Assembly (NCBI GenBank): GCA_018608435.1
Contig: JABAZV010000006.1
Coordinates: forward strand, 31,692-95,691
DNA length: 64,000 nt
Reading direction: 5' to 3'
DNA from: Patescibacteria group bacterium
Lineage (GTDB): Bacteria > Patescibacteriota > Minisyncoccia > Phycocordibacterales > UBA918
Of the stretch, positions 5,906-37,700 are shown in pieces. Position 1 is the first letter of the stretch. The number at the start of each line of letters is the position of its first letter. The translations under genes were made by a program, and so were the position numbers. Below the pieces are notes generated by a model that was given only the letters and a program-made list of their open reading frames with translations, was not told the origin of the DNA and did not search any database.

Positions 5906-5910
5906 TTAGT

Positions 5911-12976: not shown

Positions 12977-13010
12977 AATTATTTACCAGCTAAACCAAAC
13001 AGATAAGACT

Positions 13011-13019: not shown

Positions 13020-13025
13020 ATAAAA

Positions 13026-13667: not shown

Positions 13668-13844
13668 CCAGATTGTGTAAAGTTCTAATTTTTTGTGCTA
13701 TTTTCTTCCCGCAATGCAAATTGCTACAATTTCCAAGTCTAAAGCTGGCTAACCAAAAACCGATGGTAAAGACAAAATATTCTTGTTGATATACTAAGGA
13801 TAGTGTTATACAGTATGGTTTGAAATCGTTTTGGGAGAAAAGTA

Positions 13845-14036
13845 ATGGCTAGGTCTATTTTCGCTGTAGTTCTCACTTTGGTGTCTTCTTCCTGTCTGTT
13901 CGTCGGAGTGTTTCATCTTACTGGTGACTGGGTGACTGCTGCTGTCTTTGCTGTGGCACTTTGCACAGCTCTGTTCATTTTGCTTATTTCAATAGAGGCT
14001 ATTATTGGGAGCATGCGCAAACTAAAATACAAATAA
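13845..14036 (+). CDS. Small two-TM membrane protein (63 aa), hypothetical
   Basis: Two hydrophobic helices are followed by a basic C-terminus. A terminator follows directly. Confidence 0.4.
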   Translation: MARSIFAVVLTLVSSSCLFVGVFHLTGDWVTAAVFAVALCTALFILLISIEAIIGSMRKLKYK

Positions 14037-17529: not shown

Positions 17530-17593
17530 TGTCGAATGATAATTCATTAGCACTGCCAGCAATGCTTTTCAATATCGAGTATACTAATGTGTA

Positions 17594-18055
17594 ATGAAGC
17601 AAAAAGCCTCCATAAGTGACAAAGCGAAACAGGTTGGTAACGCTATGATAAAAACTGATATTAAGTCAGAAAAGTTGCTTTTGTATGCCTCGCAACCAGC
17701 AGCTGGCTTTCCGGCACCAGGAGACGATCTGGTTGAAGCTCCACTTGATTTAAATGATTTACTTGTAGAAAACCCTACCAGTACGTTTTTTGTTCGCGTG
17801 TCTGGTGATTCTATGGAAGGCGCGCGTATTTTTGAAGGCGATATTTTGGTGGTAGATCGTTCAATTGAGCCTTCTCATGGCCGGATTGTGGTAGCTGCTG
17901 TGTATGGTGAATTGGTTATAAAGCGTTTACAAAAAACTCCCACAGGATTAGCTCTGGTGTCAGAGCAAAAAGGATATGAGCCAATTATTATCGATGATGT
18001 GGATGGTTGTTTTATTTGGGGAGTAGCAATTGGTTCGGCCAGGGTTTTGCTGTAA
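17594..18055 (+). CDS. umuD: UmuD-like S24 peptidase (translesion synthesis accessory protein)
   Basis: AGFPAPGDDLVEAPLDLNDLLVENPTSTFFVRVSGDSM aligns with E. coli UmuD [38 protein letters not shown]. This includes the Ala-Gly self-cleavage site, the Ser nucleophile and the Lys in VIKRL. There is no N-terminal HTH, so it is not LexA. Confidence 0.85.
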   Translation: MKQKASISDKAKQVGNAMIKTDIKSEKLLLYASQPAAGFPAPGDDLVEAPLDLNDLLVENPTSTFFVRVSGDSMEGARIFEGDILVVDRSIEPSHGRIVVAAVYGELVIKRLQKTPTGLALVSEQKGYEPIIIDDVDGCFIWGVAIGSARVLL

Positions 18056-18058
18056 GTA

Positions 18059-19288: not shown

Positions 19289-19400
19289 GACAGTACTTCT
19301 TATTCAGAAAGATAAAGTGCCGACTCTAATAGAGTGCGGCATTTTATTTTGCCAGTTTTAGAACATTGCCGAAGACACGGTCGATGGATATACTACTTGT

Positions 19401-21127: not shown

Positions 21128-22207
21128 ATGTTCGCAAAAGCAACTAAAGTTGGCTTTGCGCAGCAGGTGGTCGCGACACTTGTTGCAAGCGCAGTACTTA
21201 TGTGGTCATTTGGAATGTACCACACTGCGCAAGCAGCTAACCTCACTTTAATTAGTGACACCCTCGGCACTTCGGAGCCGGCGGTGACCTCAACACACTC
21301 AATTGCCTTCACTATCCCAACCGGCTCTGCGCTGGCGGATGGTGACACGGTAACTATTACATTCCCCGTAGGCTTTACAGGCGTTGCAGCAGTAGCCGAT
21401 GCTAATACCGACATTACTGTCGGAGGAACGCTAGATGTTGATGGTTCGGCAACCGTCGCAGGCGCTGGCCAAAGTATTACATTTAATACTGTGGCTGCAG
21501 CGGCGGGGCAAGAAATAATAGTCGCGATCGATGATTTGATTATTACAAATCCAGCAGTAGTTGGTTCGTATGAAATCTCACTTGATACTGGAACAGGTGG
21601 AGATAATGGTAACACTCGTGTTGCCATTATCGACACTGTACTAGTTACTGCAGCAGTTCTTACAACTTTTGATTTCACAATCATTGGAACTGCAACTTCT
21701 ACAGCAGTTAACGGAACATCAACTACTGGCTCAACTACTCCAACTGCCGTACCGTTTGGTACCGTGTCAGCTGGAGAAGTTAACACTCTCGCTCAACGTC
21801 TAACTGTATCTACAAACGCACGAAACGGTTTTGTGGTTACGGTACAAAGTGACGGTGAACTAGAGTCTTCAAACGGAGCGATCATTGACAGCTTCACCAA
21901 CGGTACTGACATTGCAGTTGCAGGTACCGCTTGGGCATCACCTACAAACCTCGTAGCAGATGAAGCGACTTGGGGTCACTGGGGAATCACTTATGATGAT
22001 GACGCAACAGTAGATCTTGCAGCCAATGAATTTATTGCTGCTTCTACTACACCGCGAGAAGTCTTCAGTCACACAGCTGCAGCTGATGGAGTAACACCAA
22101 ACATTGGTAGTACAACTATTGGCTACCAGCTAGAGATTACTCCACTACAGGAAGCGGCCGATGATTACAGCACTATTCTGACATTCATTGCAACACCTAC
22201 TTTCTAG
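21128..22207 (+). CDS. Secreted surface protein (signal peptide; N-terminal about 60-aa domain paralogous to that of ORF 24360..26258)
   Basis: Cleavage looks to follow AQA. The N-domain is SDTLGTSEP...THSIAFTI...GDTVTITFPVGF. The 24360 ORF has SDTISDSGP...HTLNFIL...GSTFEITPPSGF. The opposite-strand ORF 21070..21786 is a shadow. Confidence 0.7.
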   Translation: MFAKATKVGFAQQVVATLVASAVLMWSFGMYHTAQAANLTLISDTLGTSEPAVTSTHSIAFTIPTGSALADGDTVTITFPVGFTGVAAVADANTDITVGGTLDVDGSATVAGAGQSITFNTVAAAAGQEIIVAIDDLIITNPAVVGSYEISLDTGTGGDNGNTRVAIIDTVLVTAAVLTTFDFTIIGTATSTAVNGTSTTGSTTPTAVPFGTVSAGEVNTLAQRLTVSTNARNGFVVTVQSDGELESSNGAIIDSFTNGTDIAVAGTAWASPTNLVADEATWGHWGITYDDDATVDLAANEFIAASTTPREVFSHTAAADGVTPNIGSTTIGYQLEITPLQEAADDYSTILTFIATPTF

Positions 22208-22230
22208 TAAATGCAAATCTGAAATGGACA

Positions 22231-22259
22231 CAAAACCCTCTTTGAGGGTTTTTGTTTTG
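22231..22259 (+). terminator. Rho-independent terminator (AAACCCTC-TTTG-AGGGTTT plus T-run)
   Basis: caaaaccctctttgagggtttttgttttg lies 25 nt after the stop at 22207. Confidence 0.75.
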
Positions 22260-22668
22260 TCTGTTGCTCATGCTAGACAAGCTTTCGACAATATTATTTT
22301 TTCACATTTTTGATATTTATCATATTTTATTCTGAATTTTACGCTTGCCAATTTAATTGTCATAACAAGTTTATTTTCATAAATAATATTTAAAAGTGGC
22401 TTAGCTTTGTTAAAACTTTGGGTCAGATCTTGGTTAAGAAAGGTCTTTTAGATTTAAAAATATTTACAGTGTTTGTAGTTTCAGTTTAAAATATGGTTAA
22501 AGGTGAACCCAAATATGACATCGACTTTAGTTGTAAGCATGAGGATTGGTACACATTTTTTCGTACACATTTATAAATAATGTGTTCGTTTTGTGAATAG
22601 TAAAGACATACACAGTTGCAGGGTGATATGATGGTATTAATTATCAAATTTATAGTCAAAGCTGACAC

Positions 22669-23763
22669 ATGACATCAATCCCTCATTTTTTATCGACCTA
22701 TTTTATATCATGTGCGAAATTGGTGGTTGTCGCCTTTTTTATTGTAGTTTTCTTTATTTTCCCCATACTTGCGACGGCGCAAGAAGAAGGGGTCGGTATT
22801 TCTCCTGCGACGATCGAAGAAACTATAGATCCTGGAGTGACAAAAGAATACGCGGTGACTATAGAGAACCTGAATAATAGTGAACAGAAATATTTTTTGT
22901 CCACTCGAAATATAAAAGGAGTAGAAGCTGGTGGTGTTCCTGTATTCGCTACAGATAATTTAGAGAAGACTGGTTATGAGTTAGCAGATTGGATAGATTT
23001 GTCTGTGACAGAAGTTGTCGTTCCTTCTCGCGGTAAAGTTCAGGTTCCTTTTGTACTAAGTGTGCCAGAAGCCGCTTCTCCTGGAAGTCACTTTGGAGGA
23101 GTTTTTATTTCGGTGGACCCTCCTGATATTGTGGGTAGTGGTGCAGCTGTGGGATATCAAGTAGCAAACATTATAAGCATAAGAGTTTCGGGTGACGCTA
23201 TCGAACAGGCTGGTGTACGTGAATTTTCAACTGTTAACTTTTTCCATAATTCACAAGATGTTGATTTTCAAGTAAGAATTGAGAACACAGGAAATGTTTT
23301 AGTGCGCCCCACTGGACCGCTTGAGATTTACAACATGTTAGGAAATAAAGTTGGTAACATCGTTTTTAACGAAAGTCAAAGCGGCGTATTTCCAGGAACG
23401 GTAGAGACTTTCTCAAATATAAATTGGACAGGGGATTCGCTTGGGTTCGGTCGTTATGAAGCGGTAGTTAGCCCGGTTTATGGTGATTTTGGAGCCATAA
23501 AGACCATGACAAGTACTGTTACTTTTTGGATTCTACCGATGAGCATTATCGGTCCTGCTCTTGGTGTGCTGGCTGTGCTGGTTTTACTTACATACATATT
23601 TGTGCGCATCTACATCAAGAGATCTCTTGCTCACATAACGCAGGGCAGGAGAATTGTTCGTAAGCGTAATCAGCAAGGGTCGTCAGCCTGGTTACTTGTT
23701 ACAGTAATGGTATTGGCGGTCACAGCTCTATTTCTCATTGTGTTGTTGGCTCTGTTTGCGTAA
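22669..23763 (+). CDS. Cell-surface protein with an N-terminal signal/TM, an Ig-like extracellular region and a C-terminal TM anchor (DUF916/DUF3324-like or COG1470-like architecture)
   Basis: GISPATIEETIDPGVTKEYAVTIENLNNSEQKYFLS resembles the DUF916 N-terminus pattern. There are two C-terminal TM helices. The assignment rests on pattern and architecture, not on a confirmed HMM hit. Confidence 0.6.
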   Translation: MTSIPHFLSTYFISCAKLVVVAFFIVVFFIFPILATAQEEGVGISPATIEETIDPGVTKEYAVTIENLNNSEQKYFLSTRNIKGVEAGGVPVFATDNLEKTGYELADWIDLSVTEVVVPSRGKVQVPFVLSVPEAASPGSHFGGVFISVDPPDIVGSGAAVGYQVANIISIRVSGDAIEQAGVREFSTVNFFHNSQDVDFQVRIENTGNVLVRPTGPLEIYNMLGNKVGNIVFNESQSGVFPGTVETFSNINWTGDSLGFGRYEAVVSPVYGDFGAIKTMTSTVTFWILPMSIIGPALGVLAVLVLLTYIFVRIYIKRSLAHITQGRRIVRKRNQQGSSAWLLVTVMVLAVTALFLIVLLALFA

Positions 23764-23791
23764 TTTACAATTGTGTGACATATTAAAACAT

Positions 23792-24238
23792 ATGGCATCT
23801 GACGCAATAAACAACAATGTGATACCGAAATTGAAGCAATTTTCGATGTATCATAAAGCATTGCGAATTGCTATGGCTGTCGCATCTGTCGCACTTGTGT
23901 TTGAAAGTGGTTTGGTTGATGATTCTACTGCTCGCATGTCGCAGCAAACTCATCAGTACTTGGCTAATGCAGTTGGCATGACAACTTCTGTTAGTCCAAC
24001 AGAGCTCAATCAGTACACCGCCGCCCTAACGGCAAAAGAAAAAGCTCTTGCTGATCGAGAAGCTGCCTTGGAAGAACGTGAACTATCGATCGGTTTGTCG
24101 TCTGGGGTTAGTACTCCAGGAAATCAACAGGCAACGTATATTTTGGCTAGCGTTCTGTTTATATTGTTGGCACTAATATTGCTAAACTACATTCTTGATT
24201 ACATGCGTTTGCGTCGAGAATCAGTCGTGCAAGTTTAA
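23792..24238 (+). CDS. Small bitopic membrane protein with a central coiled-coil segment (start trimmed to the ATG at 23792)
   Basis: The listed ORF starts at 23738, inside the upstream gene. The downstream ATG gives 148 aa with N- and C-terminal TM helices and a coiled coil (EKALADREAALEERE). Confidence 0.45.
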   Translation: MASDAINNNVIPKLKQFSMYHKALRIAMAVASVALVFESGLVDDSTARMSQQTHQYLANAVGMTTSVSPTELNQYTAALTAKEKALADREAALEERELSIGLSSGVSTPGNQQATYILASVLFILLALILLNYILDYMRLRRESVVQV

Positions 24239-24359: not shown

Positions 24360-26258
24360 ATGTTATCTCTAGCACTAAAGAAAGTGTGCCGATTATTACT
24401 ATTTGCACTGTTTGTATTTTCTGGTTGGCTAGTTGTGTCTACTGAAAGTGCGGAGGCAGCAAATATTATACAATACAGCGATACTATAAGTGATTCTGGT
24501 CCGAATCAATTAGCCAATCACACTTTAAATTTTATTCTCAACGCAGCAGCAGGAAGTGGTTCGACCTTTGAAATTACTCCTCCGTCTGGATTTACACTTA
24601 ATTCAACAACAACGTTTGGCGTTCGAAATGTTGAGCTTGTGGTAGATGGCGCCGTACGTTCTGCAGTTGATACTCCTACTGCTGGTGAAGATTCGGTTGA
24701 TATTACTGGTGGTTCTCCTGGTTTTATTAGCTACACTTTGGCTGACGATTACAGTATTCCGGCCGGTAGTGAGCTGACATTTAGAATCGGTAATCATACC
24801 TCCGGTGCCCTAGGAGCTGTCTCTTCTTTCAGTACTACTACTGGTACAACCACTACGCAAGCCGATGTGCCGCCAATACAGAACTCATCTGCTCTTGGGA
24901 GACATGATTTACTGCTTGAAGTATATGATGGTTCTTTGATCGCATCCACTGAGTTTGTTCTTTTTCTAAATAATAAGGTTAATCTACAAGGAATTGATAC
25001 GACAGAAGAAATTCCTCCTTTTCTTTTTAATGGTTCACCGACCAGTACTGTTGGCGGAACCACTTTGAGTGTAGAAATTTCTTTAGAGTCGGATGAGTTT
25101 GCTTTTTGTAGATATAGCACAACTTCGGGCACGGCTTTTACTTCTATGGATCCTGATTCATTCTCTAATACGGGTTTAATATTTCATTCGACAGTAGTTT
25201 CTATTGTTACTGGTCAACTCAACGTATTTTTTGTGCGCTGTATTGACGACGAAGGAAACTTTAATACAGAAGATTTTTTAATCTCTTTCGTCGTATCAGG
25301 TCAGCCAACCGGTACTGCTAACACCGAAGGTGAAACCAGTGGAGATGGAACTGGATCAGGAGATAGCGGTGGAGGAAGTGGTAGTGGATCAGGCGGAACC
25401 TCTGGTGATTCTGATGGTGAGCAACCAGAAGAAGGAAATTCTTCTGGAACTGGCGGTTCTGGTGGAGGTGGGGGTAGAACTTCTGGTGGCGGAGCTGGCG
25501 GTGGATTTGAAAATACAGATGCTTCGTATCGGAGTGGCGACGGACGCGTTGTAATTTCAGGTTACGCTTTTCCAGATAGTGACGTCACTATATTGATTGA
25601 CGGGCAGCTTCACGACACTGTAATAGCAGATGCTGACGGATCGTACTCCATTACTCTCGATGAAATAGCTCGTGGGGCTTATACTTTTGGAGTTTACGCG
25701 GTTGGTGACAATGATGTGAAGTCGTCAACATTCAGTACTTCCTTTACTGTAACTGGTGCTAGGACTTCTTCTTTGAGTAATATTAATGTTGTTCCGTCAG
25801 TACTGGTCGATCCTGACCCAGTTGATATTGGGCAAACTCTGACTATGTCTGGATATGCTTTGCCCAACGCGATTATTTCGATTGAAAACAGTCAACGTGA
25901 ATCAAGTATTGTAAAAGAAATTTCTGCTACTTCAAACAGTGATGGTTTTTGGTCGACTACAGTAGATACAGGTTCTTTCTCCCAAGATACATATCAAGTG
26001 CGGGTAAAGTCTGAGCAAGAGGATGGTGCTGAGACTGGATGGTCTAACTACACATATTATGGTGTTGGCGGAGAAGCTGAAGCTCCTCTTTTCCCCGATT
26101 TAAACCGAGACGGGTTTGTTAATCTTGTCGACTTCTCTATCTTACTTTTCTGGTGGGCAACAGACGGAGGTGACTCTGATCCACCGGCTGACATTAACCG
26201 CGACGGTAATGTGACTCTGACAGACTTCTCTATTCTGCTCTTTAATTGGACTGGATAA
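24360..26258 (+). CDS. Secreted protein with an N-terminal domain paralogous to ORF 21128, a Gly/Ser-rich linker, Ig-like domains and a C-terminal type-I dockerin
   Basis: It has a signal peptide. The C-terminus has DLNRDGFVNLVDFSILLFWW and DINRDGNVTLTDFSILLFNW. These are two canonical dockerin Ca-binding segments with D1-N3-D5-G6-V8-N/T9-D12 spacing. Confidence 0.85.
   Translation: MLSLALKKVCRLLLFALFVFSGWLVVSTESAEAANIIQYSDTISDSGPNQLANHTLNFILNAAAGSGSTFEITPPSGFTLNSTTTFGVRNVELVVDGAVRSAVDTPTAGEDSVDITGGSPGFISYTLADDYSIPAGSELTFRIGNHTSGALGAVSSFSTTTGTTTTQADVPPIQNSSALGRHDLLLEVYDGSLIASTEFVLFLNNKVNLQGIDTTEEIPPFLFNGSPTSTVGGTTLSVEISLESDEFAFCRYSTTSGTAFTSMDPDSFSNTGLIFHSTVVSIVTGQLNVFFVRCIDDEGNFNTEDFLISFVVSGQPTGTANTEGETSGDGTGSGDSGGGSGSGSGGTSGDSDGEQPEEGNSSGTGGSGGGGGRTSGGGAGGGFENTDASYRSGDGRVVISGYAFPDSDVTILIDGQLHDTVIADADGSYSITLDEIARGAYTFGVYAVGDNDVKSSTFSTSFTVTGARTSSLSNINVVPSVLVDPDPVDIGQTLTMSGYALPNAIISIENSQRESSIVKEISATSNSDGFWSTTVDTGSFSQDTYQVRVKSEQEDGAETGWSNYTYYGVGGEAEAPLFPDLNRDGFVNLVDFSILLFWWATDGGDSDPPADINRDGNVTLTDFSILLFNWTG
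26155..26255 (+). other. Dockerin type-I module (two 22-residue Ca-binding repeats) at the C-terminus of ORF 24360..26258
   Basis: The coordinates are approximate. The two segments are quoted in the entry for ORF 24360..26258. Confidence 0.8.
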
Positions 26259-26487: not shown

Positions 26488-26973
26488 ATGTCCTTTCTGC
26501 AGAGACTAAAAGGTAGGGGAGTACGTGATGGTGACGACACGCTTCTTTCTGATGCTGAAGAAACAGCCGTCGACAAGGTTGCTCAGCTCCATGTTGATGT
26601 TTACCAGACTGAGCGGATGATTGTGGTTTACGCACAATCTGCTGGCGCTGACATGAATGACGTTCACGTTTCAATTGAAGGTGATGCGGATATCGTTTTG
26701 ATTGAAGGTCGTCGTGTGCGACCTGAGTACATTGTTTTCCCGCGAAAAAAGGTCAAAGGAGCTTTTGCTGCCGAAGAGTGCGAGTGGGGCGAGTTTTACA
26801 GGCGAATTATTTTGCCTGAAAGCGTTGATATTGACCAGGCGGATGCAAAGATTAAAAACGGAGTTTTAATACTAATTTTACCCTTGCTAAAGCCGAGCGA
26901 AAAGGAAAAGGTTAATCTTAAGGTTACAGGCGGCCGTAAAGAAGGGAAGCGCAAGGTAGCAAAATCTACTTAA
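26488..26973 (+). CDS. Hsp20/alpha-crystallin family small heat-shock protein
   Basis: The alpha-crystallin domain has the motif AKIKNGVLILILP (A..nGvL.i..P). Size and charge distribution also fit. Confidence 0.85.
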   Translation: MSFLQRLKGRGVRDGDDTLLSDAEETAVDKVAQLHVDVYQTERMIVVYAQSAGADMNDVHVSIEGDADIVLIEGRRVRPEYIVFPRKKVKGAFAAEECEWGEFYRRIILPESVDIDQADAKIKNGVLILILPLLKPSEKEKVNLKVTGGRKEGKRKVAKST

Positions 26974-26991: not shown

Positions 26992-28542
26992 ATGAAAACC
27001 ATCCGTATTGTAGATAAGATAATAACAGCAACACTTTTTTCTGTGGCTATGTTTGCCTTTTCAGCAGCTTCTGTTATGGCGGCGGACTTGGCTCTTTCTC
27101 CCAGCACAGGGTCTTACTCAGTTGGACAAACTTTTACAGTAGCTGTGCAAGCAGTGCCTGGTGGAGATAATGTTAACGCAGTTGAAACTACTCTGGAATT
27201 TGATCCTAGCGTTCTTTCTGTTGTCAGTATAAATAAAGATGGCTCCGCCTTTTCCTTGTGGACTACTGAGCCAGCCTTTTCAAACAGCGCCGGCACCATC
27301 ACTCTAGGTGGCGGAAGTCCGACGCCTTTTACCGCCACTTCCAAGATACTTAATGTTACGTTTAGAACAACAGGAGAAGGAGTTGGCTCGGTAACCTTTA
27401 GTGGTTCTTCAGTTTTGGCAGCTGATGGTAGAGGTACCGACGTTTATAAAAATTCTACCAATGGTACTTATACTATTGCTGTAGCCACAACTCCTACGCC
27501 AGAGCCTACTCCTACGCCTGTGTCTACACCTGAACCAGTGTCCCAAACACCGACTGAAGCAGCAGAGGAAGATGATGAAGAAGCTATTATTTTTGGCGAC
27601 CCGCCACGACCGCCTGAAGTTGGTTCTCAAACTTTTCTTGATCCAAATATTTGGTACGGTGACATAAACGGTCTTTTTACTTGGTCGCTTCCGTTTGATG
27701 TTAACGTCGTGGCTGTAGAAATTTCTGATGACCCAGAAAATAAACCTGAAGAAAACGAAGATGCAATCATTGATCCACCAGTTGAAGAGTTTATAATTAG
27801 CGAAGATAATGCCTCAGATGGAGTGCAATACGTTAGTGTAAACTTCAAAAACCAAGTTGGTTGGGGTGCGCCTACAAACAGGAAATTGCAGATCGACACT
27901 ACTTCGCCAGAGCCATTTGCAATTAATGTCCAAGCTGGAACTTCTCCAGATTCATTCCCTTTGCTTAAATTTGCTGCTGAAGATAAAACTTCTGGAATCG
28001 AATACTACGATATGACTGTGGCGGACAAAGAACCTGTCCGTATTACTCCTGACGAAGCAAAGCTTGGCTATTTACTTAAAGATCTTGAGGACGGTACGTA
28101 CACTGTAAAAGTGGTTGCTTCAGACATGGCCGGTAATACTCGTGAAAGTAGTGTTGCTGTATTGATCACTGCTGGTTGGGTGAAACCGGTTGAAGTCATT
28201 GATGAAACTTCTTTCTGGGACTACTTAACTTTCGTTAATCTTCTGATCTTCTTCTTAATCGTTACTATTATTCTACTAATGGTTTACGTCTGGTACTTGC
28301 TTAAGAGCACAAAAGAAAAAGATGAAAAATTGCGCCGAGAAACACGTGAAATTCAAGATCAAATGGAAAAGATTTTCTCTGCTCTCCGTGATGAAATTTA
28401 CGATCAAATCAACACCATAACAAAGCGAAAGCGGTTGTCAGCAAAAGAAAAAGAAACTGTAGCAGCTCTTACACAAGCACTAGAAGTATCCGAAACTCTG
28501 ATTGAAAAAGAGATCAATGATGTCAAAGCCATTCTGAAATAA
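26992..28542 (+). CDS. Membrane-anchored protein with an N-terminal cohesin-like domain, a Pro/Thr/Glu linker, a second beta domain, a single TM and a cytoplasmic coiled-coil tail
   Basis: It has a signal peptide. GQTFTVAVQAVPGGDNVNAVETTLEFDPSVLSVVSINKDG...GTITLGGG...ILNVTFRTTG...GSVTFSG follows the cohesin consensus (..fdl.YDp.vLe.vsv..). The TM is FVNLLIFFLIVTIILLMVYVWYLL. A C-terminal coiled coil follows. Confidence 0.75.
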   Translation: MKTIRIVDKIITATLFSVAMFAFSAASVMAADLALSPSTGSYSVGQTFTVAVQAVPGGDNVNAVETTLEFDPSVLSVVSINKDGSAFSLWTTEPAFSNSAGTITLGGGSPTPFTATSKILNVTFRTTGEGVGSVTFSGSSVLAADGRGTDVYKNSTNGTYTIAVATTPTPEPTPTPVSTPEPVSQTPTEAAEEDDEEAIIFGDPPRPPEVGSQTFLDPNIWYGDINGLFTWSLPFDVNVVAVEISDDPENKPEENEDAIIDPPVEEFIISEDNASDGVQYVSVNFKNQVGWGAPTNRKLQIDTTSPEPFAINVQAGTSPDSFPLLKFAAEDKTSGIEYYDMTVADKEPVRITPDEAKLGYLLKDLEDGTYTVKVVASDMAGNTRESSVAVLITAGWVKPVEVIDETSFWDYLTFVNLLIFFLIVTIILLMVYVWYLLKSTKEKDEKLRRETREIQDQMEKIFSALRDEIYDQINTITKRKRLSAKEKETVAALTQALEVSETLIEKEINDVKAILK

Positions 28543-28736: not shown

Positions 28737-31700
28737 GTGAAAAAAAATAAGCCTCACAACTCAAGCGAAAATAAAAATAAGAGCATTTTTAAAGCACCAT
28801 TCGGGATTTTGCAGCTTATTAATGGTTTTAAATTGTCATTAAAATTTACTCTAGCTGTCGCTGTTGTATTTAGTTTGCTTTTACTGCAACCGCCTGATGT
28901 TCAATCAAAACGTTCGACAAACATTAGCTTTGGTTCAGATCAGACCATCAATATTTTTCCGTCACAAGTTGAAACGACAGATTGGGCTGGACTTAACAAC
29001 GTTCTTATTCAGGATTTGCCGAACGATGCTCTGTACCAAAACTTTGGTGCTCAGTCATCAGCTTATGTTCCTTTGGCCGATTTGTTCGTTCCACAAAATG
29101 GCGAGCCTGAATTGATCAATAGTCAAGTACAGCCGCAAGCAGACAGTTCATCTTCAGACGGTAGTCAGCCTGCTTTGCCAAATGGAACTTCTGCTGCTGA
29201 CGCTGCCGGTTTTGTCGAGAATGATGCTATAAGTCTTTCTGGTGATCAGTCGACATCAACTCAGTCTGAAGAAGTGTCAAATGAAATTTCTGATAATCCT
29301 GTAACAGAAAGTGATTCGTCAAATGCTGATGAGACAGTTGTTGCTGAACCTTTGCTCGATGATGTTCCTGAAAAAGATGATGGTTTTTCTGTTCAGTCGG
29401 AACCAGAATCTGATGAAAGTACTGCTGCTGATGTTTCTGAAATAGAAGAGGAGATTGTTGTCGAAAGCGAAGTGGAAGTTGTTGCTGAACCTGTTGAAGA
29501 TTCGACGGCTGAAACTGAATCTTCAGAACCTGAACCTTCAGCTGAGCCAGAAGAAGCGATTTCACTGATTGATATTTTGCACCCAAAGTACGGAGTTTTT
29601 TCTGTAACTTCACAACTCTTTCCACTTATGCAGCTGTCGTTTGTTAGTACCACGGAACCGGTTTTAGAAGAATCTACTCCCCTTGAAACTGATTCAGGAA
29701 ATATTGTTGATGTAGAAGAAGATCAACCACTTCCTGAAGAAGCAGCTCCTGAAGAAACATTTTCATCATCAATTGCAAACGAAGGAGTTGTAGAAGAGAT
29801 TGATCCTCTGTCGCTTTCTGATGAAGTAGTAGAGATTGATACGACAACTTCTACATCTGAAATTTTGAATACTGAGTCATCTTTAAACACAAAAAGTATA
29901 GAGTCTCCAGTGGCCGACGATACTTCTTCAGCTTTGCAAGATTCTCCTGTGACATCTAATTCTTCATTTTTACATGAGATTACTTTGTCTAACTTCGATA
30001 CAGCCCCGCTCGATCCTGGGCAGTTTGTCCAAGGTATGCAGCTTAGACTTTCACTTGCAGCCCAGCTTAATGATCCTGTTGCTGACGGCGAACAAGCACC
30101 ATACATAGAAATATTATTTGGGCAAGGTGAATCGCTTGAAACTGTCGGTATTATTTTGCTTGAAGATGAAGTGTCAAATGCACTTAATGGTGGCTATTTC
30201 CTCTTCGCTTTACCTGAACTTTATGACATTGACAATCTCGCCAGCACCACGGTTTCTGTGCGTTACATGGGAGAGGCTGATTTGCTTGATGGAATGTTCC
30301 TTGATGCTGCTTGGCTCGAGCTTGATACGAAAATTATTACAAAAGAAGACCTTGAAGCTCGAGGTAATGCCGCAGCGATTAAGAAACTTGATTTGCCAAC
30401 AGCTAGTACGCTTATAAGCGATCAGGTTAATTTCCGTCGCGACGAAACCCCAGTCTTCAACTTGCGCTATAACTCAAAAAGAAACACTGTTCTGCGTGGT
30501 TTGCGTGACCTTTTCGGAAGAGATTTAGTGGAAGTTGAATCGGCTCTCGTTAAGCACCGTGGGACAGGTTTGTTAGGGATCACACCAGAGATTAATATTA
30601 CAAATGATGGTTTGCTTACCGTATCAATTAATGAAAAAGATAGGAAAAAACTTCGTCCCGGTCAGTATACGGTTGAGATAACATACAAAGAAGGAGGCGA
30701 GACTATCATTGATACTTTTGATTTCCAGTGGGGAATATTAACTACTAATCCCAATAAGTCAGAATATGAAGTAGGTGAGACAGCACAGATTTCCGTTGGT
30801 GTTTTGACTCCTACTGGACACACTGTTTGTGATGCAAATCTAGACCTGTACGTCACCGATCCTGAAGGATTTGTGTCTCGCTACCTAGTCGATCCGTCAG
30901 GTTTATGTGATGGAAATAATGTTATTGACGTGCCTGATTTCAGCACTTTTGTTCCAGTGACAACTGCAGGTGTGTATGAGCTGTATTTGGAGAGACTGGA
31001 CGATGATGGTTCTGTTCTTGGTTTTACTACAGACACTTTCAATGCTGTGCCTCTACAACAAACAATCAGTATTGAACGTACTGGGCCAACTCGTATTTAC
31101 CCACTTGCTCCTTACACAATGAGCTTGAAGGTTGATTCGGCTGGTGATTTTGATGGAACTTTGACCGAGTATGTTCCAGCTTCTTTTGTGGTTTTTGATA
31201 CTGACGCTAGTGTAGAGCGTGAAGGTGAGTGGCTTAAATTAGTTTGGGATTTATCTGTTTCGGCTAGTGGTACGGAAACCATTAGCTATCAGTTTGATGC
31301 TCCGGATATTTCTCCCTACCTCTTTACTTTAGGGCCAGCGCGGCTTGATTCTAACGACGCATCTACAGCTTCAAGCACCGAAAAAACGGCTAGAAATAAC
31401 GTTTTCATTGAACATCGCCGTTGGCAGATCGCGTCTGACGCGGTTGGGAAGATGTTGCTCTTCTGGGATGACGGTGCTGCTATTCCGGCAGGCTGGGTTT
31501 GTGTTTCTTGTGCACCGGCTGATCCTTTTTATCAAAGGTTTATTATGGGTAGCTCAACTTACAACTCTACTGGTGGTGCGGCTACTCATACTCATACTAC
31601 TAGCGGATCCGTTCTGGCGTCACTTTTATCTACGACAGAGAGTGGGTCAGGTACCATAGCGCCAGTGAGCCATACTCACACCTACACTCCGACTATCAGT

Positions 31701-34700
31701 GGTGAATCAAATCTTCCGCCTTATCGTCAGTTACGCGTAATCCGCTACGACACCGCGGCAGGAGAGCCTGCAACGATTCCGGCTGGAGCGATTGGTATAT
31801 TTGATGTTGCGTCCTCATCACTTCCAGCTAATTGGAATCGTTACGGTGCGCAAGATGGCAGTTTCATTTACGGTGAAGACACCCCTGCTACCACAGGTGG
31901 TACAACTACTCACACTCATGGTATTTCTGGAACAACCGGCGCTTCAGCTGGAGCTGGCACGCGTGTTCGTGGTGGCGGAACACAGGTCTCGGGTGCTGGC
32001 AATACTCATACTCACACTGTTACTGCTAGTAGCGACTCTCACAGCAATGAGCCACCTTACATAACTGTCTTATTGGCGGAGCTTTCTGTCGATTCTGCGC
32101 CAACTAATGGACTAATTGCAATGTGGGACGAAGATATTGATGATGGCTGGTTAAGCTTGTCAGCCGACAGCGAAGCATTCAGCAACCGTTTTATTAAACC
32201 AACTACAACTTACGGTACGACCGGTGGAGGTGAAACTCATGATCATGCCGACGTTACTGGTATTACTTCAAGTGCTCCAAGCGCAACTCAAAATGCACGT
32301 TCTGGTTCTTCTGGTTCTGATGGCACGCACACTCACTCAGTAAGCGTTACCGGATTCTCAACTGAGTCAAACTTGCCGCCTTATGTAACTGTTGTCTTTG
32401 GCAAGCGACAGGGAACTAGTCCGGTTTACGAACAGCTTTCTTCTCGTTGGTACGCTAATAATGAATCAGCCCAAACACCGACCGAACCATGGCCAAACGA
32501 CGCTGGAGTAATTGATTTGGCAGAAGATGAGCCGATTACTGCTACCAGCTCACCGGTGAAAAATGGTGAAGAAGTTCGTTTGCGAATTAATGTTGGTGTT
32601 ACAAATGCTACTTCTACTGCAGGAGAGGAATTCCAGCTCCAATACACTGCGGCCAATATTTGTACAGACGGATCTGCGGTGTGGAGTGATGTTGGTGATG
32701 TAGCGTCTAGCACAGCTTTTTGGCGCGGTTATAATAATGTCAGTATTACCGACCATGGAACTCTCTCTTCTACGCTCCTTGCTTCATCAACCGTCGAGGC
32801 TACTTACGAAGAAAACGGCTACTCCACTACCACACCCAATGATATTAGTGTAGGTGAGTATGGCGAGTGGGATTTTGTCTTGCAACACAACGGTGCCTTA
32901 GCTGGCACAAATTACTGTTTCCGAATGGTTGAGAAAGCCGGTGCGACTTTCCAGAGCTACACGCAGTACCCACAAATTTACACCAACGAGTCACCAAACC
33001 AGCCAACCCTAAGTAAGTTATTTGATGCTGAAAAAACAGCTTCTACCTCTCCTTGGTTTTATTTCGTTGCCAGTGACACTGAAGGGGAAAACATTCATTA
33101 CGAAATAGAAATAGCTGACAATTATGCTTTCGCTTCACCAGCTGTTAGCAAAGACACCATTTCCAATTCTTCCCAATTTGAAAACCAACTTCTAATCTCT
33201 GATAAAGCTCCTTTCCGTCAGGGTGAATTAATGAAGTTTACTCCCAGTGCAAGCTTCACAAATGGCACGACTTATTATTGGCACGTGCGCGCTCGAGATC
33301 CTGAGGGGTCAGACGATTGGAGTGAGTGGTCAAGTATCAATAGCTTTACTATTGATACTGCGCTGACAGCTTCTGCTTGGTTCCAAACGGAAACAGAACA
33401 ATTTGACGAAAACATTCTCGACAGGGTCGACACCGCTACCGATCAGGCTGACATTGCGGCTGGTTCTACCACTGCCGCCATGACAGGAGGTTTGATAGAT
33501 TTCACCGATGGTGAAATGGGAACAGCTTGGGATAGTCTGACATTTAACGAAACCGACGGCAGTGGCGTACTCTTGTATCAAATCGAGTATTTGGATAATA
33601 GCGACACATGGACGCTGATTCCAGATGTCGACTTGCCAGGAAACAGTACGGGCTTTAACACTTCACCGGTAAACTTATTATCACTTGATGTTGAGACTTA
33701 TAATTCCATTCGAGTGGTGGCTGATTTTAGTGCTAATACTGGTACACCAAGTTTGCAAGACTGGACAATAAACTGGGGTTATCGAGTAGATACTCCGATG
33801 ATCGCGAGTCTTTTTGCTAACGAACAAACAGGCACGACAACACCGACATTAGAATTTACTACGACCGATCCACAGAACGACAGTCTGACTTATCAGCTGC
33901 AGTGGTCACTCACACCTGATTTTGCCGCTTCAACAACGCGTACATCTGATGCTGATGCTGGGTTTACAAATATCAACACCGGCGCTGATCTCGATCCGTT
34001 TAACTCTGGCGATACAATTCAATTTACCGTGCAAGCAGCCGATGCTCTGACTGGTTCAACCACTTACTGGTGGCGAGTGCGGGCAAAAGACACTACAGGG
34101 GATGATGCTTATTCCTTCTGGACTGACGCTCAGAGCTTTACTGTAATTCCTGGGACTGAAGTTTCTACTTGGTTCCAAACATCAGCTGATCAATTTAGTA
34201 GTAATATTCTCTCTGGTACTACACCAATTGGTATTGGTGCTGTAACAGTAGCGACTACAGCCGTAGAAGCGATGATTGTTTACGGAGAAGGTACGCTTAC
34301 GTCACCACGTTATCGTCAGTGGGATGGTACAAATCTTGGCGCTGAAGATTCAATGCAAGATATTGACTCACCGTTAAAGTGGGCTGTTGTGCGGGCTGCT
34401 CCAACGCGTGAAGAATATGTCGCAGCAACAGTCGGGACTGATGCCGACGTGAACGCTCAAGTATTTTCGACTGGTAGTTGGGAGAATTTACAGGAAATGA
34501 CTATCAGTGTCGGTAACATTAACGCTCGTGGTTTTGATGTGGCATACGAAACGCTCTCGGGTGACGCTCTGGTTGTGTACTGTGACGGCGACGCTGACCC
34601 TAGCTATTACGTTTGGAACGGAACTAGTTGGACTAGCGGCGGAACTATAAATCTTGCTAGTATAAATAACTGCGAATGGATAAAACTCGCTGCTGATCCT

Positions 34701-37700
34701 GTGTCTGACGAGATTGTTCTGATGGCGCGTGATAGTGATGGTACTGCTGCTGCTTCTTACGAACTGCAGGTGTGGAACGGTACGGCTTGGGGAAACTCTT
34801 CTACTCAAGGCGGTGCGCGTAACACAGCTTACGAAACAATGGCTTTAAAATATGAAGAAAGCGGTGGTCAACTACTTTCGGTTTCAGGTGACGGTAATCC
34901 AGCTCGGTTTGAATACAACTCTTGGAACGGTACTGCTTGGGCCGGAAACGCCAATGATAGTACGATCGCGGATAATATAATTTGGGCAGAACTAACACGC
35001 GACGAAGGAACAGACAACATGACAATGTGTTATGTAGACGAATCAGTTGCAATTGGTGCAATCAATTGGACTGGTGCAGCATGGAGCGGACAAATTGACC
35101 TAGATGCAACTGGAAATGCAATAGATGACAAAGCGGTTTCTTGTGTGTACGAATCAACGACTGGTCGCGACGGTAATCTTATGACTGTCTACAGTGACGC
35201 AACCAACTCTCGCTACCGTGTGTGGAATGGAGTGACATGGTCAGCGGAAGCTTCTGTAAGCACGATCACTGATGTGTCGACTATTCAAACAATCCGCACG
35301 GGAATTGGTGGTATTCTTGGTCTTTTCTACGACGATGTAAACGACGCTATTTCTTTCTCAGACTGGAACGGCAGTGCATGGAGCGCGGAGCAGACAGTTG
35401 AAACAAACGGCTCAGTCGATACGGTTCCTTACGGACAGCCGTTCTTCATGGCGCCCAGAAACCCAGGTGGCGAAGGAACGGTGGTAGTTAGTCCAGCACT
35501 TAATTTTGACGACGGCAACGGACCGTACTGGAAAACGTTCTCGTGGAATGATGTGCAGCCAGGTACGAGCGAGATTCTGTATCACTTGCAATACCAGACT
35601 GCGACTGGTTCATGGGCATTTATCCCTGACGTAGATTTACCTGATAATGTTGCAGGCACATCAACCGGACCTTATGATTTATCTCTCTTAAACACCGGTA
35701 TCTACGATACGATCAGGCCGTATGCTGAGCTTACTTGTGACGGTTCTGGCAATTGTCCAGAGTTGCAAGATTGGAAAGTTGAATGGGCTGGCGGAATTGT
35801 TATTTCGGGAACAGCTGCACTCTACGACGAAACTACGGCTCTAAATAGCGGTACAGTGGCAGTGGCTGTAAACGGAGTATTGCAAGTTGGTAAAACAGCT
35901 AACATTAGTGCAGGCGCATGGAGCATTACTAACGTAACCACTTTCCCTAGTGATGTTGTTACGGTGTTTATAACTGGTGCGGCTGACTCCGGCGAAGCTG
36001 TTGCTGTTTCGCGCTACGATGGGCAAGGCGACATGAGCGGTATGGACTTGTTTGAAAGGCACCTTACGCTTGGTTCAAACGACGCGACCACTACGCCACT
36101 TACCAATGCTGATATTGGGCTGTATGACTTTACTAATACTGAAGACATTTTCTTCGATCTCTCTGGCGCGACTCTTACTATGTGTGCCGATGCTGGTTGT
36201 AGCGATGCTGAATTATACGTTCAAGCTGGTACATATTACGAGCCAGCCGGTGCTTTTGTTGCGCATGATTTTGAAAATAACGGCTACTTCACAGCCGGCG
36301 CATACACCCATGAGATAAATGGCTCTTGGGACAATAACGCCACTACGACAATGACAGGTTCGACAGTCGTATTCGCTGCGACTAGCACAACCGAAAGTGT
36401 AGATAATACAGGTGCTGTCACTCCAACTTTTGACAATATAAGATTTGGTACAACTACAGGTAACGGAACATGGACACTTGAAAGCGAGCTTGATGTTAAT
36501 GGCGACCTGATCGTTGATAACGGTACCTTAGCGCGCGGCACAACCAGCATGTTAGTGGCCGGTGATTTGACGACTGGAACCAGTGGTTTCTGGAGCGGAA
36601 TCGGCACTACTACATTTGACGGCGCAGATGCAGCCAACTGGAGTGATCAGAACGCCGTCATACAAAACGTTGGTAATGTAGTGGTTGACGGTACAAACAA
36701 AGTAGTTATCTTGGCCGGTGACGCTGCGGCAGAATCAATCATTATCGGAGCCGATGACACGCTTGATGTTTCGGTTTCAAACTATGATCTTACTGTTTAT
36801 GGCGATTGGACTAATCAAAACAACTTCCTTGCTCGCGCCGGAACAGTTTTCTTTGCAGCAACTTCAAGCGGACAAGCAATCACAAGCGCTGGCGACGCTT
36901 TCTATGATCTTTCATTTGTAGGAATTAATGGCGGCTGGTCGTTTATAGACACGGCACTCTTGGTGAATAATGATTTTGCCGTAGCGACAGGAACAGTAAC
37001 TTTGCCGACAGCTACAACGACCATCGACGGCTCATTTGATTCTACTGGTGGTAGCTTCGCGCATAACAACGGCACGCTTCTGTTTACGTCGGATGCCGCT
37101 GAAAACATCACTCTCGACGGAGATGACTTTACGAATGTTACGAATAATCTAATTTTTGATGGGGCTGGCACATGGAACATGCTCGATGTTAATGCGACTT
37201 CTACTGGAAATGTAACAGTGAGTCAGGGAACAGTTAATTTCCCATCTGGTACCTTAGCGATTGGTGGATCACTCACTGATGATGGCGGCACTTTTGTTGG
37301 CGGCACAGGTACCGCGCGTTTCTATAGCGCTGGAACTGAGACGGTAACTACCGGAGGGTCGAGCTTCAATAATCTTACTTTCGACGGCGCTGGTGATTGG
37401 TCTTTTGTCGACACTAACTCGACTATTGCTGGCGATTTGCTCGTACTGCAAGGAACGACCACTTTCCCAACCGGCAATCTCTTGATTGGTGGTTCTTACC
37501 AAAATGCAGCAACTGTTGATGCTAACTCGGGAACAGTTACTTTTGATTCAGCTGACACAGGAGAAGCTATCGACTTCGGAAACTCTGCTCTTTACGATGT
37601 TTCCTTCACTAGTGTAAGTGGCGGCTGGACGATTACCGCTGTAGCTACGACTACTAATAACTTCAGTCTCGTTGCTGGCTCTGATTTCACTCTCGACAGC

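What the first reader, a model, noticed from the sequence alone, without database searches (positions are those of the whole stretch)
21128..24238. Surface-protein cassette with paralogous N-domains and a DUF916/DUF3324-like anchored protein, reminiscent of WxL/Csc loci
ORFs 21128 and 24360 share an N-terminal domain directly after their signal peptides: SDT(L/I)xxSxP...HTxxFxx...G(D/S)T(V/F)xITxPxGF. Between them lies a protein with signal peptide, Ig-like region and C-terminal TM anchor, whose N-terminus (GISPATIEETIDPG...YAVTIENLNNSEQKYF) resembles DUF916. A small coiled-coil membrane protein follows. In Firmicutes, DUF916/DUF3324 (CscA) proteins co-occur with WxL (CscB/C) surface proteins as non-covalent cell-wall complexes. 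The C-terminus of ORF 21128 (...DDYSTILTFIATPTF) is loosely WxL-like, with F in place of W. This may be a divergent analogue of such a complex. Here it is coupled to the cohesin-dockerin pair downstream.
Basis: inference. Interest (0 to 1): 0.5.

Follow-up and report, generated by a model that had tools for sequence, protein, structure and literature searches.

The report
Pam-like pilus with WxLIP-type chaperone
This gene cluster of an ultra-small (CPR/Patescibacteria) bacterium most likely builds a thin surface fibre from one repeated subunit, helped by a membrane-bound partner protein; it ties a pilus only just discovered in these bacteria to the 'WxL' surface complexes of lactic acid bacteria.

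Summary

A is not a recognisable WxL protein. It has the two-domain build of Pam pilins, and its C-terminal domain matches NCBIfam CPR_Pam_pilin_C across the family (best E 1.5e-10, always below the naming cut-off).

My reading is a Pam-type donor-strand fibre of Paceibacteria. A is the subunit and B the membrane-anchored strand-donating chaperone or anchor. D (pilin N-domain plus linker, no acceptor domain, C-terminal dockerin) bound to F (cohesin plus membrane anchor) would form a split base anchor.

The gene set recurs in 217 species genomes and in three locus architectures, including an in-frame B-A fusion. A WxL to pilin-domain relationship is only suggestive (global hhalign E 5e-4, 13% probability). 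No polymerisation or binding step is shown. I class it as a new variant of a known kind.

The parts
21128..22207 (+). A: major fibre subunit (Pam-like pilin), 359 aa. Signal peptide aa 1-36 (AQA|A), N-terminal beta-sandwich aa 37-167, linker aa 168-187, C-terminal domain aa 188-359 ending in the invariant ...ATPTF-COOH.
   Evidence: AF2 pLDDT 90.8 with two domains. NF058581 CPR_Pam_pilin_C matches aa 205-359 against model positions 3-148 of 148, E 7e-4; 87 of 118 and 60 of 93 relatives match, best 1.5e-10. 1969 representatives at 50% identity.
21614..21688 (+). Linker of A (aa 163-187, TRVAIIDTVLVTAAVLTTFDFTIIG): candidate donor strand.
   Evidence: One of the most conserved 15-mers of the family (0.86 / 0.66). 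As hydrophobic as a membrane segment. In Pam pilins the linker strand is the donated strand (paper). The donor role here is inferred.
22232..22262 (+). Terminator-like hairpin plus T-run 25 nt after the stop of A, followed by about 400 bp of AT-rich spacer before B.
   Evidence: This is a consensus match only.
22669..23763 (+). B: WxLIP-type (DUF916), PapD-like two-domain protein, membrane-anchored. Candidate chaperone and/or anchor.
23113..23184 (+). Hairpin of B (aa 149-172, ...SGAAVGYQVANIISIR): candidate strand donated to A.
   Evidence: Most conserved 15-mer of B (0.93), yet the lowest model confidence in the ectodomain (aa 157-162 below 50). It aligns with the WxLIP hairpin that AF2 predicts to insert into WxL.
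23792..24238 (+). C: small protein with two membrane segments and an extracytoplasmic coiled coil. Role unknown.
   Evidence: Present after B in 55 of 58 related loci. No informative family match.
24360..26258 (+). D: signal peptide, pilin N-domain paralogue and linker-like segment (aa 34-205), Cys-pair domain (205-315), Gly/Ser spacer, two Ig domains, dockerin (aa 580-626). It has no pilin C-domain. Proposed terminal (base) subunit.
   Evidence: Present in 46 of 47 related loci.
26488..26973 (+). Hsp20 gene between D and F. Conserved position; membership of the system uncertain.
   Evidence: PF00011, E 5e-10. Present in 38 of 44 loci.
26992..28542 (+). F: signal peptide, cohesin (aa 41-162), Ig-like domains, membrane helix (aa 406-440), cytoplasmic coiled-coil tail. 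Proposed membrane receptor for D's dockerin.
   Evidence: PF00963 29.6 bits, above the cut-off. Membrane segment. Present in 38 of 41 loci and in 2-3 copies in the type-2 loci.
28737..45536 (+). G: 5599-aa secreted giant protein (DUF2341, Ig_Rha78A_N) with a conserved C-terminal domain of about 260 aa (aa 5340-5598). Linked by position; role unproven.
   Evidence: The C-terminal domain recurs on a 625-aa protein next to the B-like gene in type-2 loci. No significant match to the pilin C-domain.

Best explanation
The cassette encodes a Pam-type, usher-less donor-strand fibre of a Paceibacteria-class CPR bacterium.

Shown:
- A is a Sec-exported two-domain protein whose C-terminal domain is homologous to the Pam pilin C-domain.
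- B is a membrane-anchored two-domain protein, homologous to WxLIP (DUF916) and with the PapD-chaperone fold.
- D carries a paralogue of A's N-domain but no C-domain, and ends in a dockerin.
- F carries a cohesin and a membrane anchor.
- These genes travel together in several architectures.

Inferred mechanism:
1. After export, the incomplete C-domain of A is completed by the conserved hairpin strand of B (aa 149-172). B thereby holds A at the membrane, acting as chaperone and possibly as anchor.
2. The hydrophobic linker strand of the next A subunit (aa 168-187) replaces B's strand, so A polymerises head to tail as PamA and PamB do.
3. D can donate but cannot accept a strand. It therefore ends the fibre at the cell-proximal end.
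4. D's dockerin plugs into the cohesin of the membrane protein F. D plus F would then be a two-piece equivalent of the PamR anchor.
For: A as a Pam-like pilin:
- The AF2 model (pLDDT 90.8) shows signal peptide, N-terminal sandwich, linker and C-domain. This is the build described for PamA and PamB.
- NF058581 matches over its whole length, to the very C-terminus, in 87 of 118 close and 60 of 93 diverse relatives (best 1.5e-10).
- The linker, the C-terminus and the segment 225-239 are the most conserved parts. The Pam authors report the same for the donor strand and the groove.

B as a strand-donating partner:
- B's most conserved segment is a low-confidence hairpin aligned to the WxLIP hairpin that is predicted to complete the WxL fold.

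Linkage of the genes:
- 217 species genomes, all CPR, encode an A relative. Among type-1 loci with enough flank, B is present in 57 of 61, D in 46 of 47 and F in 38 of 41.
- A second, rearranged locus keeps a B-like gene, a dockerin gene, an A-like gene and cohesin genes.
- P0399 is an in-frame B-A fusion.

Polarity:
- In the fusion's locus, a 996-aa protein carries only the C-domain behind a large N-terminal region, which is tip-like.
- A 703-aa protein there carries only the N-domain plus a linker-like segment and a membrane anchor, which is base-like.
- Other relatives fuse lectin, LVIVD or Listeria-Bacteroides repeat modules in front of the A module.
Against: - No polymer, strand exchange or cohesin-dockerin pairing was tested; multimer modelling was not available.
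- A scores 19.7 bits against a curated cut-off of 55 for NF058581, and no family member seen reaches the cut-off.
- PamA and PamB structures were not in the PDB copy, so there is no direct structural comparison.
- A has no cysteines, whereas PamA and PamB have 2-3 disulfides.
- Only one pilin gene and one B gene are present, and no CTD-only tip gene was found in the window.
- Whether PamC and PamD themselves are DUF916-type is untested.
- Lineage-wide synteny also includes unrelated upstream genes (CAP, S24, GH18, DinB). Adjacency in the type-1 loci alone is therefore weak evidence.
- In type-2 loci the dockerin protein lacks the pilin N-domain, so the dockerin-cohesin pair may serve another purpose.
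Confidence: 0.58

Rival explanations
1. A non-polymerising WxL/Csc-like surface complex. Single A molecules, and D through its related N-domain, are held on the cell surface by the membrane-anchored WxLIP homologue B, which permanently inserts its hairpin strand. This is the model proposed for WxL-WxLIP in enterococci. No filament is formed.
For: B is a true WxLIP homologue, and EfmWxLIP1 is its closest solved structure. WxLIP is predicted to complete the WxL fold with a hairpin strand, and a WxL-WxLIP complex is deposited (9i25). Global hhalign of 24 WxL domains against A's C-domain is the best of 11 comparisons, with all three conserved motifs in register (score 21.0, E 5e-4; decoys 10.4 or less). 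There is only one A gene and one B gene.
Against: A's C-domain matches the Pam pilin model, and PamA and PamB are proven filaments. A has the N-domain plus conserved hydrophobic linker expected of a donor. Relatives exist that look like tip (C-domain only) and base (N-domain only plus anchor) subunits, which only makes sense for a polar polymer. No WxL HMM hit was found.
Confidence: 0.22
2. A self-assembles into a fibre or coat without a chaperone, as TasA, archaeal bundling pili or BslA layers do. B is only a nucleator or membrane tether, and the D/F cohesin-dockerin pair displays unrelated surface proteins.
Confidence: 0.12
3. The genes are neighbours only because gene order is frozen in this lineage. 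A, B, C, D, F and G are independent surface proteins with no common machine.
For: The unrelated upstream genes CAP, S24 peptidase, GH18 and DinB are just as syntenic across about 70 species.
Against: The same gene set is re-assorted in a second locus type on the same contig as a type-1 locus (L070 and L090) and in a third architecture. There is a B-A fusion. A and D share a domain. D and F carry complementary dockerin and cohesin modules.
Confidence: 0.05
4. A sortase-assembled Gram-positive-type pilus.
Confidence: 0.02

Closest known systems
Pam pilus of Candidatus Mycosynbacter amalyticus (PamA/PamB pilins, PamC/PamD chaperones, PamT tip, PamR anchor; Troman et al., bioRxiv 10.64898/2026.03.03.709456)
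   Same: - It is restricted to CPR bacteria.
[quoted passage not shown]
- The C-domain is homologous by the NCBIfam model.
- The helper protein has two PapD-like domains and a C-terminal membrane helix.
- There is no usher and no ATPase.
- The linker and the C-terminal region are the most conserved parts.
   Different: - This locus is in Paceibacteria-type genomes. [quoted passage not shown]
- Scores stay below the NF058581 naming cut-off.
- There is one pilin and one helper, against three pilins and two chaperones.
- A has no cysteines.
- B has two C-terminal membrane helices.
- No PamT-like or PamR-like gene is present. A dockerin-bearing N-domain paralogue (D) and a cohesin membrane protein (F) stand in their place.
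- No ATP-synthase genes are nearby.
- The paper does not connect its chaperones to DUF916/WxLIP.
WxL / Csc clusters of Lactobacillales, Listeria and Enterococcus (WxL proteins plus WxLIP = DUF916-DUF3324-TM; Siezen 2006, Hassan 2023; PDB 9i1y, 9i25)
   Same: - The conserved hairpin is equivalent to the strand predicted to complete the WxL fold.
- The design of a small partner protein, and in relatives large versions with N-terminal binding modules, mirrors small and large WxL proteins.
- A's two best-conserved motifs (NGFxVTV and DYxxTLT[YF]IATP at the C-terminus) parallel the two WxL motifs, in the same order.
   Different: - No PF13731 or PF11797 match.
- hhalign of WxL against A's C-domain gives only 13% probability.
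- There is no LPXTG partner (CscD).
- A has an extra N-terminal domain and linker that WxL proteins lack.
- The host is a CPR bacterium, not a Firmicute.
- WxL proteins are not known to polymerise.
Chaperone-usher pili (PapD/FimC, CfaA, CsuC, SafB chaperones)
   Different: There is no outer membrane and no usher. The helper is membrane-anchored rather than soluble. The donor would be an internal linker rather than an N-terminal extension. There is no detectable sequence homology to PapD-like families.
Cohesin-dockerin anchoring as in cellulosomes (anchoring scaffoldins such as SdbA/OlpB-type)
   Same: The dockerin (D) and cohesin (F) modules both score above the Pfam cut-offs. The cohesin protein is fixed to the cell and the dockerin protein is secreted. 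Type-2 loci even contain a cohesin-plus-dockerin adaptor.
   Different: No enzymes are attached. The anchor is a membrane helix, not SLH domains or sortase. The dockerin protein carries a pilin domain. Use as a pilus anchor has not, to my knowledge, been described; a literature search found nothing.
Chaperone-free donor-strand fibres (TasA/TapA, archaeal bundling pili, pond fibril TLP-1)
   Different: Their donor is the N-terminal strand and they have single-domain subunits. Apart from TapA they have no PapD-like partner.

Membership tests
Pam pilus system (CPR) | [quoted passage not shown] | tested here: met
   AF2 model of A, pLDDT 90.8. Strands 42-167 form the N-domain, 168-180 is extended, and 181-357 forms the C-domain. 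Compared with the description. Coordinates could not be inspected for an open groove.
Pam pilus system (CPR) | Sequence membership in NF058581 CPR_Pam_pilin_C at the curated cut-off (55 bits). | tested here: not met
   A scores 19.7 bits, E 7e-4, over the full model length. Relatives: 87 of 118 and 60 of 93 match at E 0.01 or better, best 1.5e-10; none seen at the cut-off. This indicates remote homology, not membership by NCBI's rule.
Pam pilus system (CPR) | Membrane-anchored PapD/FimC-like chaperone encoded beside the pilin. | tested here: met
   [not shown]
Pam pilus system (CPR) | Filament assembled by donor-strand exchange through the linker. | not testable with these tools
   No multimer prediction or coordinates were available. 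There is only indirect support from the conservation and hydrophobicity of aa 163-187.
Pam pilus system (CPR) | Tip subunit with C-domain only (PamT) and membrane-anchored terminator (PamR) in the operon. | tested here: not met
   The pilin C-domain HMM hits only A in the window. Equivalents do exist in a related locus, L099: a 996-aa protein with the C-domain only, and a 703-aa protein with the N-domain plus a membrane anchor. In the window, D plus F is proposed as a substitute anchor (inference).
Pam pilus system (CPR) | Restricted to CPR bacteria. | tested here: met
   All 80 loci retrieved from 185,579 species genomes carry CPR/Patescibacteria titles; 217 matches in all. Named homologues are Kaiserbacteria, Nomurabacteria and Parcubacteria.
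WxL / Csc cluster | WxLIP protein with a DUF916 (PF06030) domain. | tested here: met
   [not shown]
WxL / Csc cluster | Second WxLIP domain, DUF3324 (PF11797). | tested here: inconclusive
   [not shown]
WxL / Csc cluster | C-terminal transmembrane helix on WxLIP. | tested here: met
   Helices at aa 291-324 and 339-363. There are two helices rather than one.
WxL / Csc cluster | At least two WxL-domain (PF13731) proteins within four genes of WxLIP (definition of Hassan et al. 2023). | tested here: not met
   No PF13731 hit for A, C or D, nor in 93 diverse A relatives. My WxL HMM finds nothing in the window at E up to 10. hhalign: local Prob 1-4%, global Prob 12.9%, E 5e-4. 9i25_A is not among the top structural hits.
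WxL / Csc cluster | Small LPXTG-anchored partner (CscD). | tested here: not met
   No LPxT[GAS] within 60 aa of any ORF C-terminus in the window.
Chaperone-usher pilus | Outer-membrane usher. | tested here: not met
   No usher family appears in the Pfam scans of the ORFs of at least 120 aa that were scanned. The organism belongs to a lineage regarded as monoderm (general knowledge).
Chaperone-usher pilus | PapD-like periplasmic chaperone fold. | tested here: met
   [not shown]
Cohesin-dockerin pair | Dockerin and cohesin modules above the Pfam cut-offs on separate secreted proteins. | tested here: met
   D: PF00404, 26.5 bits (cut-off 22.9). F: PF00963, 29.6 bits (cut-off 24.1). Binding was not tested.

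The most novel reading that the evidence does not exclude
The WxL-WxLIP surface clusters of Firmicutes and the Pam pili of CPR bacteria would be two branches of one ancient, usher-less 'membrane chaperone plus incomplete-Ig subunit' pathway of single-membrane bacteria. The WxL domain would then be homologous to the Pam pilin C-domain, and WxLIP to the Pam chaperones. In Paceibacteria the fibre would be fastened to the cell by a cohesin-dockerin joint, a use of that module pair not described before. One consequence is that WxL proteins of enterococci, listeriae and lactobacilli might also form, or descend from, donor-strand polymers.
Probability: 0.3. Interest if true: 0.8.

Novelty: new variant of a known kind. 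Interest (0 to 1): 0.6.

Why it matters
CPR bacteria make up a large share of bacterial diversity and live attached to other cells, yet their attachment organelles are almost unknown. The Pam pilus was identified only in 2026, in one cultured Saccharibacterium.

- **Wider distribution.** This locus shows a related system that is very widespread: about 2000 protein clusters at 50% identity and 217 species genomes. It occurs in a different CPR class and escapes the current NCBIfam naming threshold.
- **A link to a studied system.** The helper protein connects the Pam system, by sequence and by solved structure, to the WxLIP/DUF916 proteins of Gram-positive commensals and pathogens. This offers an experimentally tractable model (Enterococcus, Lactiplantibacillus) for a CPR machine. 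Conversely, it suggests a chaperone or strand-complementation reading of WxL virulence loci.
- **A testable anchoring role.** The proposed cohesin-dockerin base anchor would be a new job for a classic module pair, and it can be tested directly with recombinant domains.

Tried and rejected
- **Sequence search of PDB chains with A and with the A-family profile.** Nothing found. PamA and PamB are evidently not in the copy.
- **Foldseek of A against the PDB.** Only generic two-Ig adhesins at TM about 0.25; uninformative.
- **WxL hypothesis for A.** Pfam gave nothing. hhalign with 10 and then 24 real WxL domains harvested from Firmicute plasmids: the local mode is not significant; the global mode beats column shuffles (0 of 40), reversed profiles and 9 decoys, but stays at 4-13% probability. 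I kept this as suggestive only.
- **G's C-terminal domain as a hidden pilin or WxL acceptor.** hhalign is not significant. Global score against WxL was 9.9 with 10 sequences and fell to 5.2 with 24. Rejected for now.
- **DUF3324 in B.** Not detected.
- **NCBIfam for B relatives.** No Pam-chaperone model; only weak 'choice-of-anchor T' hits.
- **Sortase pilus.** Rejected because there is no sorting signal.
- **The search for related loci with the diverse alignment A4.** Failed because no conserved stretch was available. It was repeated with A1.
- **Source organism of the window.** Not obtainable.
- **Literature searches.** Nothing on cohesin-dockerin in CPR or on a WxLIP structure paper.
- **TLP-1b hit.** It traces to a Flavobacteriales-like pond fibril, not to CPR.
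Full report
**What is there**

On the + strand lie seven consecutive genes.
- A, 21128-22207 (359 aa).
- B, 22669-23763 (364 aa).
- C, inside ORF 23738-24238, with a likely ATG at 23792.
- D, 24360-26258 (632 aa).
- An Hsp20 gene, 26488-26973.
- F, 26992-28542 (516 aa).
- A 5599-aa giant, G, 28737-45536.

A, B, D, F and G have N-terminal signal or anchor sequences. B has two C-terminal membrane helices, C has two membrane segments around a coiled coil, and F has one membrane helix before a cytoplasmic coiled-coil tail. D ends in a dockerin and F begins with a cohesin, both above the Pfam cut-offs. A terminator-like hairpin (22232-22252) follows A directly. About 400 bp of AT-rich spacer then precedes B.

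**Checking the observation**

The shared N-domain of A and D is real.
- BLASTP gives E 6e-6.
- Profile-profile comparison gives Prob 98.2, and 98.5-98.9 (E about 1e-15) after removing the signal peptides.
- An HMM of the A N-domain picks out only A and D among all ORFs of the window.
- With lower confidence, the alignment continues into a linker-like hydrophobic segment of D (LIASTEFVLFL), opposite A's VLVTAAVLTTFDFTI.

D then diverges into a conserved domain with a Cys pair, a Gly/Ser spacer, two Ig domains and the dockerin. D has no counterpart of A's C-terminal domain.

**B is a WxLIP (DUF916) homologue with a pilus-chaperone fold**

- The window protein scores just under the PF06030 gathering score (23.9 against 27.3 bits). 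However, 117 of 119 homologues match the model, some above the cut-off and already named 'DUF916 domain-containing protein' by NCBI.
- The family profile finds EfmWxLIP1 in the PDB by sequence (E 4.9e-5).
- I harvested seven real WxLIPs from Firmicute plasmids. hhalign against B's ectodomain gives Prob 95.9 over 213 columns. Domain 1 alone gives Prob 96.8, E 2.4e-10; domain 2 alone is not significant.
- B's most conserved 15-mer, GAAVGYQVANIISIR (aa 158-172), lies in the one low-confidence loop of the ectodomain. It aligns with the WxLIP hairpin.
- Hassan et al. report that AlphaFold2 predicts this hairpin to become a strand that fills a gap in the WxL fold (PMC10599100).

**A is a Pam-type pilin, not a recognisable WxL protein**

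NCBIfam's new model NF058581 (CPR_Pam_pilin_C) matches A aa 205-359 over the whole model length. The score is sub-threshold for every member seen. The match is nevertheless consistent: 87 of 118 close relatives and 60 of 93 representatives at 50% identity match, with best E 1.5e-10.

The model derives from a 2026 preprint.
- Thin filaments of Ca. Mycosynbacter amalyticus consist of PamA and PamB.
- The linker of one subunit fills the C-domain of its neighbour.
- The membrane-anchored PapD-like proteins PamC and PamD are proposed chaperones. PamT (C-domain only) is the proposed tip. PamR (N-terminal strand plus membrane anchor) is the proposed base.

A's AF2 model (pLDDT 90.8) has exactly this build. 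Its most conserved stretches are the C-terminus (...DDYxTxLT[YF]IATPTF, always the very end), LTVSTNARNGFVVTV, and the linker TRVAIIDTVLVTAAV. The linker is as hydrophobic as a membrane helix. These features fit a buried donor strand and its groove, which is inference.

Structure searches for A were not decisive.
- PamA and PamB are not in the PDB copy.

**The WxL question**

- No PF13731 hit occurs in A or in 211 relatives.
- The solved WxL chain (9i25_A) is not among A's top structural hits.
- I built WxL profiles from 10 and then 24 Firmicute domains.
- Local hhalign aligns only GWxLxV with GFxVTV (E 0.01-0.05).
- Global hhalign aligns 131 columns with all three conserved motifs in register: FG, G[WF]x[LV]xV, and YxTTLTWxLxxxP against DYxNTLTYIATP.
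- The global score rose from 16.3 to 21.0 (E 5e-4) as sequences were added.
- It exceeded 40 of 40 column shuffles, reversed profiles (1.2 or less) and nine decoy domains (10.4 or less).
- The probability is still only 13%, so I regard homology of the WxL domain and the Pam C-domain as an open and attractive possibility.

**Comparative genomics**

- The A family is large: 1969 clusters at 50% identity at E 1e-3 or better. It is confined to CPR genomes, with 217 species hits. All 80 fetched loci are labelled Paceibacteria, Kaiserbacteria, Nomurabacteria, Parcubacteria or generic CPR.
- In 72 'type-1' loci the order is CAP, S24 peptidase, GH18, DinB, A, B, C, D, Hsp20, F, giant. Where the flank allows, B is found in 57 of 61, C in 55 of 58, D in 46 of 47 and F in 38 of 41.
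- Unrelated upstream genes are equally fixed, so this synteny alone proves little.
- Seven or eight 'type-2' loci re-assort the set. One lies on the same contig as a type-1 locus. Their order is: a 625-aa protein ending in G's C-terminal domain, a B-like gene, a dockerin protein, an A-like pilin, and two or three cohesin proteins including a cohesin-plus-dockerin adaptor.
- Long family members put lectin (Laminin_G_3), LVIVD-propeller, Listeria-Bacteroides-repeat or FN3 modules in front of a complete A module.
- P0399 is an in-frame fusion of a B-like protein (PF06030 above the cut-off) and an A module. B's second membrane helix serves there as the pilin's signal peptide.
- The contig carrying P0399 (L099) holds a Pam-operon-like set:
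  - a 996-aa protein with only the pilin C-domain at its end, which is tip-like;
  - a 703-aa protein with only the pilin N-domain and a linker-like segment, ending in a membrane anchor, which is base-like;
  - a second pilin;
  - a second B-like protein with a single membrane helix.

**Mechanism proposed**

Shown: the domain identities, the homologies and the co-occurrence described above.

Inferred:
1. A is exported. Its incomplete C-domain is capped by B's hairpin at the membrane.
2. The linker of an incoming A displaces B, so the fibre grows from its base.
3. D can donate a strand but not accept one, so it terminates growth.
4. D's dockerin binds F's cohesin, fixing the fibre to the membrane. 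D plus F would be a split analogue of PamR, as suggested by the single-chain version in L099.

I cannot tell whether B acts transiently as a chaperone or permanently as an anchor, as proposed for WxLIP. The roles of C, Hsp20 and G are unknown. A's own terminator would fit a higher output of subunit than of helper, but that is consensus-level evidence only.

**Comparison and verdict**

The locus works like a Pam pilus and most likely is a distant member of that superfamily, but it fails NCBI's membership score. It shares one true component (WxLIP) with WxL/Csc clusters, but it fails their defining requirement of WxL proteins. It shares the chaperone fold and logic, but not the usher, with chaperone-usher pili.

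I class the locus as a new variant of a known kind. Two points are new: the WxLIP identity of a Pam-type helper, which the Pam paper and its supplement do not mention, and the candidate cohesin-dockerin anchor. Interest is 0.6.

Noticed in passing
window 28737-45536; L067 4978-6855, L075 4857-6734, L090 5551-7401: The 5599-aa giant protein G (DUF2341, Ig_Rha78A_N) ends in a conserved, Cys-rich domain of about 260 aa. In type-2 loci the same domain ends a 625-aa protein directly upstream of the B-like gene. It has an I-x-Y-G-x-L motif like the pilin's IPFGTL, but no significant profile match to the pilin C-domain or to WxL.
   Followed up: partly
window 23683-23763 (B aa 339-364): B has a second C-terminal membrane helix ending ...LLALFA-COOH. 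It is among the most conserved parts of the protein (0.91). In the fusion protein P0399 the equivalent helix is the signal peptide of the attached pilin (…IFVQA|ASLTG). WxLIP, PamC/D and the second B-like protein of L099 have only one helix. I have no explanation for this.
   Followed up: partly
window 26488-26973: An Hsp20 (alpha-crystallin) gene without a signal peptide sits between the dockerin gene and the cohesin gene in 38 of 44 related loci. That is an odd place for a cytoplasmic chaperone.
   Followed up: no
window 16045-20651: The block CAP-domain protein, S24 (LexA/UmuD-like) peptidase, GH18 and DinB/IMS polymerase is syntenic with the pilin cassette in about 70 species. S24 plus DinB looks like an SOS mutagenesis pair.
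   Followed up: no
window 2050-4666: A sortase gene (PF04203, E 2e-17) follows a 662-aa secreted protein with a lamin-tail domain. Yet no ORF in the window has an LPxTG-like motif near its C-terminus.
   Followed up: partly
window 6409-12891: A 2160-aa secreted protein combines glucose/sorbosone dehydrogenase, PKD, three Big_7 domains and a polysaccharide deacetylase.
   Followed up: no
window 49288-51977 and 54261-59069: A MacB-type ABC transporter, an AcrB-like RND pump and a HlyD-like adaptor are present in a genome of a lineage regarded as lacking an outer membrane.
   Followed up: no
L067 14667-15419, L075 14664-15419, L090 14834-15577, L092 14966-15718: Type-2 loci encode a 250-aa protein with both a cohesin and a dockerin, that is, an adaptor scaffoldin. 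This points to a multi-step cohesin-dockerin chain on the CPR cell surface.
   Followed up: partly
L099 (Logan SRR22388272 contig), 1-13993: This is a third locus architecture. It has a two-component system and a type IV pilin-like gene upstream, then tip-like, base-like, fused and free chaperone and pilin genes, and a TSP3-repeat protein.
   Followed up: partly
[not shown]
   Followed up: partly
L098 (CP069367.1 95106-106504): The best plasmid match to EfmWxLIP1 (50% identity), with a WxL ORF beside it, lies on a record labelled Klebsiella pneumoniae. It is probably a mislabelled or contaminating Gram-positive sequence.
   Followed up: no
window 21689-21745 (A aa 188-206): A conserved Ser/Thr-rich loop (ATSTAVNGTSTTGSTTPT, conservation 0.87 among close relatives) lies at the start of the C-domain. 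It may be a glycosylation site, by analogy with the modified Ser356 of PamA. A GT2 glycosyltransferase gene lies at 4871-5905.
   Followed up: no
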